This document shows positions 26,608-27,106 of a stretch of 64,000 nucleotides of DNA, piece after piece. The stretch comes from Escherichia coli (GTDB taxonomy: Bacteria; Pseudomonadota; Gammaproteobacteria; Enterobacterales; Enterobacteriaceae), in assembly GCF_003334355.1 (NCBI RefSeq), contig NZ_QOWP01000005.1; one strand, given 5' to 3'. The position numbers and the translations under genes were made by a program. Positions within the stretch are counted from its first letter, which is position 1. Every line of letters begins with the position of its first letter. The notes below the pieces were generated by a model. The model was given only the letters and a program-made list of their open reading frames with translations, did no database searches and was not told the origin of the DNA.

Positions 26608-26666
26608 AACTTTCCGATTAAGAACCTGCTCAGCGGGTTCTTGCTGTTTGTACTTTGTCTCAGGAA

Positions 26667-26726
26667 TTACTTACGAAGCATAACTTCAATAAAGTCTTTC
26701 CAGTTCCCCAGTTCACGTTCAATCAT
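26667..26726 (-). CDS. ypfM: small protein YpfM (19 aa: MIERELGNWKDFIEVMLRK)
   Basis: Short minus-strand ORF translated by hand; matches the known small protein; coordinates +/-1. Confidence 0.75.
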   Translation of the reverse strand: MIERELGNWKDFIEVMLRK

Positions 26727-27106
26727 AACAACCTCTCTTATAATTATGGGTATTCTACGGAAACAATATACCGTGGTGAAGCTAATTTACTCGATTGCTG
26801 CGATGACTACCTCCGGGGGACAAACCTTATGTAAATACTATGGTCCTGCGGTGATAATTTGTATGTGATACACAGCAACATTTCGAGATATTCATACGGC
26901 ATCTAATACTGATTTAATTCTGGTTAAAATACAGACAGATAACAAGATGAATATTCTTAATGTTTACGTTAAAAATGTTTAACATTATTTAATAGTTGTT
27001 AATTTGAATACTTCGATAATGTTATATTTCCTGATAATCATTTGCAGGCAAAATGTTTTCACCCTTAAATGAGTATTTATTCTCATAGATCGAAAAAGGA
27101 TTCATT

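What the first reader, a model, noticed from the sequence alone, without database searches (positions are those of the whole stretch)
26608..27106. About 500 bp of AT-rich spacer containing the 19-aa gene ypfM and repeated AATGTTTA motifs
This is the largest non-coding stretch in the window. Besides the micro-ORF ypfM (MIERELGNWKDFIEVMLRK, minus strand), it contains closely spaced copies of ATGTTTA (AATGTTTACGTTAAAAATGTTTAACATT at ~26960-26990, with a near-palindromic core AATGTTTAACATT). No protein gene explains most of the region. It may hold the yffB-dapE promoter, a nucleoid-protein binding region or an unannotated small RNA.
Basis: seen in the sequence. Interest (0 to 1): 0.35.

Follow-up and report, generated by a model that had tools for sequence, protein, structure and literature searches.

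The report
Divergent ypfM–yffB promoter spacer; chance motif
This AT-rich gap in an E. coli chromosome is an ordinary, already documented two-way promoter region between the tiny gene ypfM and the yffB-dapE operon, and the repeated AATGTTTA motif in it is no more than chance and is not conserved.

Summary
ypfM (19 aa, minus strand) is at 26667-26726, GC falls to 22%, AATGTTTA occurs at 26959 and 26974, and this is the largest annotated gap in the window.

The motif does not hold up.
- An 8-mer repeated within 30 nt occurs in 17-22% of dinucleotide shuffles, and a 6+6 palindrome in about 30%.
- Both copies are mutated in E. albertii and a second Escherichia species, and nothing remains in Citrobacter or Salmonella.
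- The palindrome AATGTTTAACATT depends on one SNP (C26983). The window's exact 71-mer is in 102 of 5426 E. coli genomes; the T version (MG1655) is in 3616.

What is conserved lies elsewhere:
- the bidirectional acrD/ypfM terminator and a structured ypfM 3' UTR (Rfam STnc250, an Hfq-bound small mRNA);
- ypfM and its TTCACC-17-TAGAAT promoter;
- a 39-bp block plus CATAGT fixed about 110-140 nt upstream of ypfM, possibly an activator-dependent distal promoter;
- an extended -10 (TGTTATATT, 27020-27028) that matches the published Salmonella yffB start site (-97).

Published genomic SELEX places RNA polymerase and H-NS in this spacer. There is no sign of a small RNA in the AT-rich part. The finding is ordinary and already known.

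The parts
26573..26608 (.). Bidirectional intrinsic terminator hairpin (AAAAAGGCGACA...TGTCGCCTTTTT) that ends acrD on the + strand and ypfM on the - strand
   Evidence: Perfect 12-nt inverted repeat (I2). Terminator-like site. Stems are conserved across 40 Enterobacteriaceae. It forms the 3' hairpin of the STnc250 model.
26568..26687 (-). 3' part of the ypfM mRNA (last 21 nt of the CDS plus the 3' UTR), homologous to Rfam RF01409 STnc250 (Hfq-binding RNA)
   Evidence: The match scores 37.1 bits, E 6e-6, below the gathering score of 42. The Salmonella orthologue scores 125.3 bits. It folds at -29.6 kcal/mol, z -4.3. Sittka 2008 reports that STnc250 is the ypfM small mRNA, enriched 4-fold in Hfq coIP.
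26619..26643 (-). Extra hairpin (AAGAACCCGCUGAGCAGGUUCUU) in the ypfM 3' UTR; it accounts for the long insertion relative to the Salmonella-based model
   Evidence: Inverted repeat I6. 37 nt where the model has 13. Low conservation outside Escherichia. Single copy per genome.
26667..26726 (-). ypfM, a 19-aa protein gene
   Evidence: Translation. RefSeq annotation. The peptide is nearly invariant in about 70 Enterobacteriaceae species, with synonymous changes at several codons. Pfam PF28148 hits the identical Salmonella product. Detected by mass spectrometry (PMC12529367).
26732..26738 (-). ypfM Shine-Dalgarno sequence (AGAGAGG on the - strand)
   Evidence: Read from the sequence. Invariant AAGAGAGG in orthologues.
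26752..26780 (-). ypfM proximal sigma-70 promoter P1: TTCACC-17-TAGAAT; predicted start about 26745
   Evidence: Promoter scan. The same hexamers are given for ypfM in RNA polymerase genomic SELEX (PMC3946193). Both hexamers are conserved with a variable spacer, and are also present in species that lack the distal block.
26837..26842 (-). Conserved CATAGT (plus strand ACTATG): candidate -10 of a distal ypfM promoter P2; predicted start about 26830
   Evidence: CATAGT or CATATT lies 20-21 nt downstream of the invariant TCACA in 53 of 56 species. Its distance to the ypfM ATG is fixed at 106-128 nt. A P2 transcript in Salmonella would be about 233 nt and a P1 transcript about 152 nt, against about 220 nt on the Northern. 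This is an inference.
26853..26891 (-). 39-bp conserved block upstream of ypfM. It contains TGTGA-N6-GCAAC (26864-26879), which reads ..AATaTTGCtgTnngTCACAt.. on the - strand, centred at -41.5 of the predicted P2 start
   Evidence: Conserved in 56 of 72 loci. It sits 136-152 nt from the ypfM ATG whatever the spacer length (292-839 nt). As a CRP site it matches only 7 of 10 core bases, which is at chance frequency.
26892..27012 (.). Fast-evolving, very AT-rich filler between the two promoter systems; it holds the reported motif, and published SELEX places H-NS in this spacer
   Evidence: GC 0.22. Identity to the window is 79-81% in sister Escherichia species, 53% in Citrobacter and 34% over all 40 species. 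Length varies by hundreds of bases between genera. IS1 is inserted at 26897-26906 in strain YSP8-1. H-NS mark.
26959..26989 (.). The reported motif: AATGTTTA at 26959-66 and 26974-81, and palindrome arms at 26971-79 and 26981-89. It lies at about -76 to -46 of the inferred yffB start
   Evidence: Within chance. Both copies are mutated in E. albertii and Escherichia sp.. Identity is 74%, 71% and 38% in E. albertii, Escherichia sp. and Citrobacter. The palindrome depends on the minority SNP C26983.
27020..27028 (+). yffB-dapE-ypfN promoter: extended -10 TG-T-TATATT; inferred start about 27034-27036
   Evidence: Conserved at a fixed distance from the yffB ATG in many genera. The Salmonella TGTTATATT at L083 1388-1396 lies 8 nt upstream of the published start site at -97. 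The E. coli start site itself is inferred.
27035..27106 (+). yffB 5' UTR (about 72 nt) with SD AAGGA at 27096-27100; unstructured and variable except for the ribosome-binding region
   Evidence: Fold z +0.87. Predicted UTR length is 59-98 nt in most of the genera compared (Enterobacter group 59, Escherichia 72, Citrobacter 80-81, Salmonella 98), and AAAAGGATTCA is conserved. In Salmonella the -97..+75 fusion is repressed by the sRNA SdsR.

Best explanation
The 540-bp gap is a compact, conventional back-to-back arrangement. From left to right it contains the following parts.

1. One hairpin that terminates both acrD (+) and ypfM (-).
2. The structured, Hfq-associated 3' UTR of the ypfM mRNA.
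3. The 19-codon ypfM gene with its Shine-Dalgarno sequence.
4. The ypfM promoter P1 (TTCACC-17-TAGAAT).
5. A ypfM-linked conserved upstream element (CATAGT plus a 39-bp block) that probably forms a second, activator-dependent ypfM promoter.
6. About 120 bp of rapidly evolving AT-rich filler.
7. The yffB-dapE-ypfN promoter (extended -10 TGTTATATT, start about 27035) with a roughly 72-nt unstructured leader.

The AATGTTTA repeats and the palindrome lie in the filler, about 46-76 bp upstream of the yffB start. They are by-products of AT-rich composition, not a specific site. If the filler does anything, it acts generically, as AT-rich or curved DNA that H-NS binds (published SELEX) or as upstream promoter DNA.

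Shown here or in the cited papers: the anatomy, the conservation pattern, the chance statistics, the allele frequencies, the identity with STnc250/ypfM, and the Salmonella start site. Inferred: the E. coli yffB start site, the distal ypfM promoter, and any H-NS effect on expression.
For: - Coordinates and ORF.
- Terminator and 3' UTR: with Sittka 2008.
- P1; the same hexamers appear in RNA polymerase SELEX; conserved in nearly all orthologues.
- yffB promoter: the conserved extended -10 coincides with the Salmonella start site at -97.
- Motif within chance.
- Motif not conserved.
- Palindrome from a SNP: window 71-mer in 102 of 5426 genomes, T-allele 71-mer in 3616, and T in E. albertii.
- The filler tolerates an IS1 insertion and large length changes between genera.
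- H-NS site in the spacer by genomic SELEX.
- No RNA family, terminator or stable fold in the filler.
Against: - No E. coli start-site or ChIP data could be retrieved here; the supplements searched held nothing. The E. coli yffB start is therefore inferred from Salmonella and from conservation.
- Shimada 2014 lists a different best-match yffB promoter (TTCATA-16-TTTAAT, 26891-26918). If it is used, the motif would lie in a 190-nt leader.
- The two AATGTTTA copies are present in most E. coli genomes (at least 3616 of 5426 carry both). A species-specific site therefore cannot be excluded by conservation alone.
- Lack of conservation between species does not rule out function for AT-rich nucleoid-protein sites, which are recognised by shape rather than sequence.
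Confidence: 0.85

Rival explanations
1. The AATGTTTA direct repeat or palindrome is a specific operator for a transcription factor that controls yffB-dapE in E. coli. Candidates are a response regulator that reads TGTTTA hexamers (PhoP- or OmpR-like) or a dimeric repressor on AATGTT-N-AACATT.
For: There are two exact 8-mers 15 bp apart, at about -76 to -54 of the inferred yffB start, a typical activator position. Both copies are kept in most E. coli genomes. TGTTTA is the PhoP-box half-site quoted in PMC5775216.
Against: The spacing is N9, not the N5 that defines a PhoP box. The only PhoP-box prediction for yffB in that paper is a different, two-mismatch site (tGaTTTAattctGGTTaAa, 26910-26928), and it was not among the sites confirmed by EMSA. 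The repeat is within chance for this composition. Both copies are mutated in the nearest sister species, while the real promoter elements 40 bp away are intact. The palindrome is a minority allele.
Confidence: 0.06
2. The AT-rich part encodes an unannotated small RNA or a cis-acting RNA element, such as a long structured yffB leader starting near 26924.
For: Shimada 2014 predicts a promoter at 26891-26918 that would transcribe through the motif. Small RNAs are often found in large enterobacterial intergenic regions.
Against: There is no Rfam match above noise in 26730-27106 and no terminator-like site there. Folding energies do not differ from shuffles on either strand (z -0.10 and +0.55). The sequence and length are not conserved. 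The Salmonella start site lies downstream of this part.
Confidence: 0.03
3. The AT-rich filler is a functional H-NS (or Fis/IHF) nucleation region that silences or tunes both divergent promoters. The motif matters only as part of an AT-rich, curved tract. This refines the best explanation and does not exclude it.
For: H-NS genomic SELEX site in the ypfM<>yffB spacer. GC 0.22. Two 8-of-10 matches to the high-affinity H-NS motif tCGATAAATT (motif recalled from Lang et al. 2007, own knowledge) at 26883-26892 and 27013-27022, flanking the filler.
Against: SELEX is an in vitro assay, and no in vivo ChIP or expression effect was retrieved. 8-of-10 matches are common: 71 in the window against 54 expected. 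The spacer is much less AT-rich in other genera (GC up to 0.50), so any such role is not conserved.
Confidence: 0.4
4. The conserved 39-bp block plus CATAGT is a class II, CRP/FNR-family-dependent distal promoter (P2) of ypfM. It would give a mRNA of about 260 nt in E. coli and about 233 nt in Salmonella.
For: - Invariant TCACA, then 20-21 nt of variable sequence, then CATAGT or CATATT in 53 of 56 species.
- The block tracks ypfM, not yffB.
- The site centre is at -41.5 of the predicted start. The TCACA-21 nt-hexamer spacing equals that of galP1 (recalled from own knowledge).
- The predicted Salmonella length is about 233 nt, against about 220 nt observed; P1 would give about 152 nt.
- The -35 position has no -35-like hexamer, as expected for an activator-dependent promoter.
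Against: The distal half-site is poor: ATTGC or GTTGC, giving 7 of 10 core matches, no better than chance in this window. ypfM does not appear in any CRP or FNR paper found by full-text search. P1 alone is a good promoter and is universal. The Northern size is approximate. The block could instead bind another factor or serve another purpose.
Confidence: 0.35

Closest known systems
STnc250 / ypfM small mRNA (Rfam RF01409; Sittka et al. 2008, PMC2515195)
   Same: Same locus (acrD/yffB intergenic region, minus strand), the same 19-aa ORF, the same terminator hairpin, and Hfq association reported in Salmonella. The Salmonella orthologue found here scores 125 bits.
   Different: The E. coli copy carries an extra hairpin in the 3' UTR (37 nt where the model has 13) and scores 37.1 bits, below the gathering score of 42. 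It is an mRNA, not a non-coding sRNA, despite the family name.
Type-A (divergent) 'constitutive promoter' spacers with an H-NS site, as catalogued by genomic SELEX (Shimada et al. 2014, PMC3946193)
   Same: This exact spacer is listed at 55.80 min with ypfM TTCACC-17-TAGAAT, yffB TTCATA-16-TTTAAT and an HNS mark.
   Different: The yffB hexamers listed there are a best-match prediction and are not conserved. The conserved element that coincides with the Salmonella start site is the extended -10 at 27020-27028.
PhoP box, (T/G)GTTTA-N5-(T/G)GTTTA
   Same: The motif contains two TGTTTA hexamers in direct orientation.
   Different: The hexamers are separated by 9 nt, not 5 (15-bp instead of 11-bp period), so the defining spacing is not met.
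Class II CRP-dependent promoters such as galP1 (own knowledge)
   Same: For the ypfM-linked block only: a perfect promoter-proximal TCACA half-site, a poor distal half-site, 21 nt to the -10 hexamer, a centre at -41.5, and no -35 hexamer.
   Different: No start-site or CRP-dependence data exist. The overall match to TGTGA-N6-TCACA is 7 of 10, at chance frequency. The distal half (TTGC) looks as much FNR-like as CRP-like.

Membership tests
Rfam RF01409 STnc250 (Hfq-binding RNA = ypfM mRNA 3' part) | Covariance-model score at or above the curated gathering score (42 bits) | tested here: not met
   The window copy scores 37.1 bits, E 6e-6, with a full-length model match but a 37-nt insertion. The Salmonella orthologue scores 125.3 bits. 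Homology is clear from synteny and from the shared ORF and terminator, so the shortfall reflects the insertion, not non-homology.
Rfam RF01409 STnc250 | Location between acrD and yffB, antisense to both, overlapping the end of the ypfM ORF | tested here: met
   Sittka 2008, Table 2.
YpfM small protein (Pfam PF28148) | 19-aa ORF MIERELGNWKDFIEVMLRK with an SD, conserved as protein | tested here: met
   Translation. It is identical to the Salmonella product that carries the PF28148 hit. There are synonymous changes with a conserved peptide in 72 loci. The window peptide itself was not scanned, because it is too short for the tool.
Sigma-70 extended -10 promoter (yffB) | TGn immediately upstream of a TATAAT-like hexamer, with a mapped start 6-8 nt downstream | tested here: inconclusive
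   The sequence feature is met: TG-T-TATATT, 5 of 6 hexamer matches, conserved. The start is mapped only in Salmonella, through the -97 fusion boundary in PMC5137417. No E. coli start-site data were obtained.
PhoP box | Two (T/G)GTTTA hexamers separated by exactly 5 nt | tested here: not met
   TGTTTA at 26961-66 and 26976-81 are separated by 9 nt. Definition as quoted in PMC5775216.
Conserved transcription-factor operator (generic) | Motif preserved in orthologous promoters of related species, and more frequent or better than chance | tested here: not met
   allele frequencies.
Independent small-RNA gene in the AT-rich part | Own promoter plus terminator, a stable or conserved structure, and sequence conservation | tested here: not met
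   No terminator, no Rfam hit, z about 0 on both strands, and not conserved. Transcript data are not testable with these tools.
H-NS-bound region | AT-rich or curved DNA with experimentally observed H-NS binding | tested here: inconclusive
   AT-richness is met. Binding is reported by in vitro genomic SELEX. Matches to the high-affinity motif are only 8 of 10 and are common. In vivo occupancy is not testable here.
Class II CRP-dependent promoter (for the ypfM-linked block) | CRP site TGTGA-N6-TCACA centred near -41.5, with cAMP-CRP dependence of transcription | tested here: inconclusive
   One perfect, invariant half-site and rigid spacing to a -10-like hexamer. The full site matches 7 of 10, at chance frequency. 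The start site and CRP dependence are not testable here.

The most novel reading that the evidence does not exclude
The reported motif is not the unexplored element. That element is the 39-bp block (26853-26891) plus CATAGT (26837-26842), conserved across most Enterobacteriaceae and locked to ypfM. It may be an undescribed activator-dependent (CRP/FNR-family, class II) distal promoter that produces the long, Hfq-associated form of the ypfM mRNA. That would tie this abundant 19-aa protein of unknown function to carbon or oxygen status.
Probability: 0.3. Interest if true: 0.35.

Novelty: already known. Interest (0 to 1): 0.1.

Why it matters
It matters little for the motif itself, which can be set aside as a compositional by-product.

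The exercise does give a clean map of a well-conserved locus:
- where the yffB-dapE promoter really is, which differs from the SELEX-based prediction;
- why Rfam misses the E. coli STnc250 copy, namely an extra 3' UTR hairpin;
- which bases upstream of ypfM are under constraint.

YpfM is one of the few very small E. coli proteins routinely seen by mass spectrometry, and it still has no known function. A conserved upstream control element is therefore a reasonable handle for finding the conditions under which it matters.

Tried and rejected
- PhoP or OmpR-type direct repeat: rejected on spacing (N9, not N5).
- LacI-type or other palindromic operator: rejected, because the palindrome is created by a minority SNP and is absent from MG1655, most E. 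coli genomes and E. albertii.
- Fur box around GATAATGTTATATTTCCTGATAATCATT: considered by eye. The GATAATCATT part is not conserved. The only Fur evidence is a 2.6-fold derepression in Salmonella, with a predicted site that maps elsewhere (L083 1466-1483, in the leader). Not pursued.
- MarA: the Salmonella ChIP site (ACCCAATTTGATAAA) maps to L083 1268-1282 in the non-conserved filler and has no E. coli counterpart.
- Hidden small ORF in the conserved block (minus-strand MNISKCCC..., 26827-26895): no SD and no codon-periodic substitution pattern by eye. Dropped.
- Sigma-54, sigma-32 and sigma-E readings of the conserved block: hexamers lie on the wrong strand or at the wrong spacing. Dropped.
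- Dispersed repeat (REP-like) for the extra 3' UTR hairpin: single copy per genome.
- E. coli start-site and 3'-end data: the supplements of PMC7815308 and PMC10301672 held no entry for ypfM or yffB, PMC4161252 has no supplements held, and Hemm 2010 is not held.
- Coordinate correction: the rulers printed were one base too low. All coordinates in this report follow the ruler.

Full report
**Identity of the locus.** The window is an E. coli chromosome segment, 99.3% identical to K-12 MG1655 and colinear with it from position 1342 onward. Near the finding, window coordinate + 2,564,140 gives the MG1655 coordinate. The genes are acrD (23455-26568, +), ypfM (26667-26726, -), and yffB (27107-27463, +) followed by dapE and ypfN. 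The same arrangement is annotated in essentially all 5426 complete E. coli genomes.

**Checking the observation.**
- The minus-strand ORF translates to MIERELGNWKDFIEVMLRK*.
- GC falls to 0.22 between 26900 and 27049.
- AATGTTTA is at 26959-26966 and 26974-26981.
- The imperfect palindrome has arms 26971-26979 and 26981-26989, and a third AAAATGTTT is at 27050-27058.
- By the MG1655 annotation, the 380-bp ypfM-yffB gap (538 bp from acrD to yffB) is the largest in the window; the next is upp-purM at 324 bp.
- The non-colinear first 1345 bases are a continuous eutB reading frame.

**Is the motif more than chance?** No.
- AATGTTTA occurs 3 times in the window against 2.06 expected.
- In 2000 dinucleotide-preserving shuffles of the AT-rich segment, 17-22% contain some 8-mer repeated within 30 nt, and 29-33% contain a perfect 6+6 palindrome.
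- The palindromic core depends on C at 26983. MG1655 has T there, giving AATGTTTAATATT.
- The window's 71-mer (26940-27010) is identical in only 102 of 5426 genomes. The T-allele 71-mer is identical in 3616, and E. albertii also has T at that column. The palindrome is therefore a derived, minority allele.

**Conservation.** I fetched 80 yffB loci from one genome per species and a Salmonella locus.
- The YpfM peptide is almost invariant in about 70 Enterobacteriaceae and relatives. Synonymous changes at several codons show that it is selected as a protein.
- In an alignment of 41 spacers of similar length, both AATGTTTA copies are already mutated in E. albertii and in a second Escherichia species. 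Nothing recognisable remains in Citrobacter or beyond.
- Identity of 26959-26989 to the window is 74%, 71% and 38% in E. albertii, Escherichia sp. and Citrobacter. That is no better than the surrounding filler at 79%, 81% and 53%. The ypfM CDS stays at 98%, 98% and 95%, and the yffB -10 at 100%, 90% and 100%.
- The spacer length ranges from 202 to 839 bp between genera.
- In strain YSP8-1 an IS1 element sits at 26897-26906.

The segment that holds the motif behaves as unconstrained filler.

**What is conserved, left to right** (coordinates by the ruler; the rulers printed were one base too low).

1. **Terminator.** A perfect 12-bp-stem hairpin at 26573-26608 has U/T runs on both sides. It is a bidirectional terminator for acrD and ypfM.
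2. **ypfM 3' UTR.** It folds strongly (-29.6 kcal/mol, z -4.3). It matches Rfam STnc250 over the whole model at 37.1 bits, below the gathering score of 42, because E. coli carries an extra hairpin at 26619-26643 where the model has 13 nt. The Salmonella orthologue scores 125.3 bits. Sittka et al. 2008 showed that STnc250 is the ypfM small mRNA. They found it enriched four-fold with Hfq and about 220 nt long on Northern blots.
3. **ypfM** with its SD AGAGAGG.
4. **Promoter P1.** TTCACC-17-TAGAAT (26752-26780) was found by the scan, is listed with the same hexamers in RNA polymerase genomic SELEX, and is present in nearly all orthologues.
5. **Distal ypfM element.** A conserved CATAGT (26837-26842, minus strand) and a 39-bp block (26853-26891) contain an invariant TCACA.
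6. **yffB promoter.** After the filler comes a conserved extended -10, TG-T-TATATT (27020-27028).
7. **yffB ribosome-binding region,** AAAAGGATTCA.

**The yffB promoter.**
- In Salmonella the same TGTTATATT lies at L083 1388-1396, and yffB starts at 1501.
- Fröhlich et al. 2016 built their yffB::gfp fusion from -97, the transcription start, which is position 1404, 8 nt after the hexamer.
- Across genera the element keeps a fixed distance to the start codon, giving predicted leaders of 59-98 nt in most genera.
- By homology the E. coli start is near 27034-27036, with a leader of about 72 nt that is unstructured (z +0.87).
- This differs from the best-match hexamers printed for yffB by Shimada et al. 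(TTCATA-16-TTTAAT, 26891-26918), which are not conserved.
- Relative to the inferred start, the motif lies at about -76 to -46.

**The ypfM-linked block.**
- The TGTGA-N6-GCAAY core stays 136-152 nt from the ypfM start codon, whether the spacer is 292 or 839 bp long. It therefore belongs to ypfM, not yffB.
- Read on the ypfM strand, the consensus is AATaTTGCtgTnngTCACAt, then 20-21 nt of variable sequence, then CATAGT or CATATT, in 53 of 56 species.
- No -35-like hexamer sits at the proper distance.
- This is the layout of an activator-dependent class II promoter. With a start about 7 nt after the hexamer (about 26830), the dyad centre (26871.5) is at -41.5. The TCACA-to-hexamer spacing equals that of galP1 (recalled from own knowledge).
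- A transcript from there to the terminator would be about 233 nt in Salmonella. P1 would give about 152 nt, and the reported size is about 220 nt.
- Against this reading, the full site matches TGTGA-N6-TCACA at only 7 of 10 positions, as often as chance in this window (194 hits against 214 expected). No paper links ypfM to CRP or FNR. The idea is an inference, at about 0.3-0.35.

**Nucleoid proteins and other factors.**
- Shimada et al. 2014 mark an H-NS genomic-SELEX site in this spacer, which fits the composition. The data are in vitro, and other genera have much less AT-rich spacers.
- Two 8-of-10 matches to the high-affinity H-NS motif flank the filler, but such matches are common.
- Published Salmonella data add a weak MarA ChIP peak, a 2.6-fold Fur effect and SdsR repression of yffB. 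The cited MarA and Fur sites map to non-conserved sequence.
- A PhoP-box reading of the motif fails on spacing. The only PhoP-box prediction for yffB in the literature is a different, two-mismatch, unverified site.

**Small RNA.** In 26730-27106 there is no Rfam match above noise and no terminator-like site. Neither strand of 26891-27034 folds better than shuffles (z -0.10 and +0.55). Nothing supports an unannotated sRNA there.

**Verdict.** The region is a conventional, already documented divergent promoter spacer: the ypfM/STnc250 small mRNA, an RNA polymerase and H-NS SELEX site, and the yffB-dapE promoter. The repeated and palindromic motif is a compositional accident, partly created by a rare SNP. 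The only element that is not yet described, as far as I could find, is the conserved ypfM-linked upstream block. Interest is low.

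Noticed in passing
window 26837-26891 (minus strand): A CATAGT hexamer and a 39-bp block with an invariant TCACA are conserved in 56 of 72 enterobacterial loci, at a fixed distance from ypfM. The layout resembles a class II activator-dependent promoter. No description of it was found in the searchable literature.
   Followed up: partly
window 26619-26643 (minus strand): An extra hairpin in the ypfM 3' UTR is absent from the Salmonella-based Rfam model. It pushes the E. coli STnc250 match (37.1 bits) below the gathering score of 42. It is single copy per genome.
   Followed up: yes
window 26897-26906; locus L082 about 1848-2614: In E. coli strain YSP8-1 (NZ_CP037910.1) an IS1 element is inserted between the ypfM upstream block and the yffB promoter, with the target duplicated. 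The filler therefore tolerates a 0.77-kb insertion.
   Followed up: partly
window 26667-26726: Some ypfM codons never vary synonymously in 55 distinct sequences: GAA5, AAA10, AAC8, and the rare glycine codon GGG7 in 51 of 54. Others vary freely. Third-position conservation is 0.86 against 0.64 in yffB, which may point to an RNA-level constraint on GAACUGGGGAACUGGAAA.
   Followed up: no
window 1-1345: The window strain lacks the CPZ-55 prophage that separates eutA from eutB in K-12. An uninterrupted eutB reading frame abuts eutA here.
   Followed up: partly
window about 45502-45549 (hyfG): Relative to this window, MG1655 lacks 48 nt (16 codons, in frame) of hyfG, flanked by a 10-nt direct repeat (gcccgtgatt). 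This looks like a slipped deletion in K-12 or an insertion here.
   Followed up: partly
window 26856 and 26825: There are two further SNPs against MG1655 in the ypfM upstream region. 26856 (A here, G in MG1655) lies inside the conserved block, and most other genera have A at this position.
   Followed up: no
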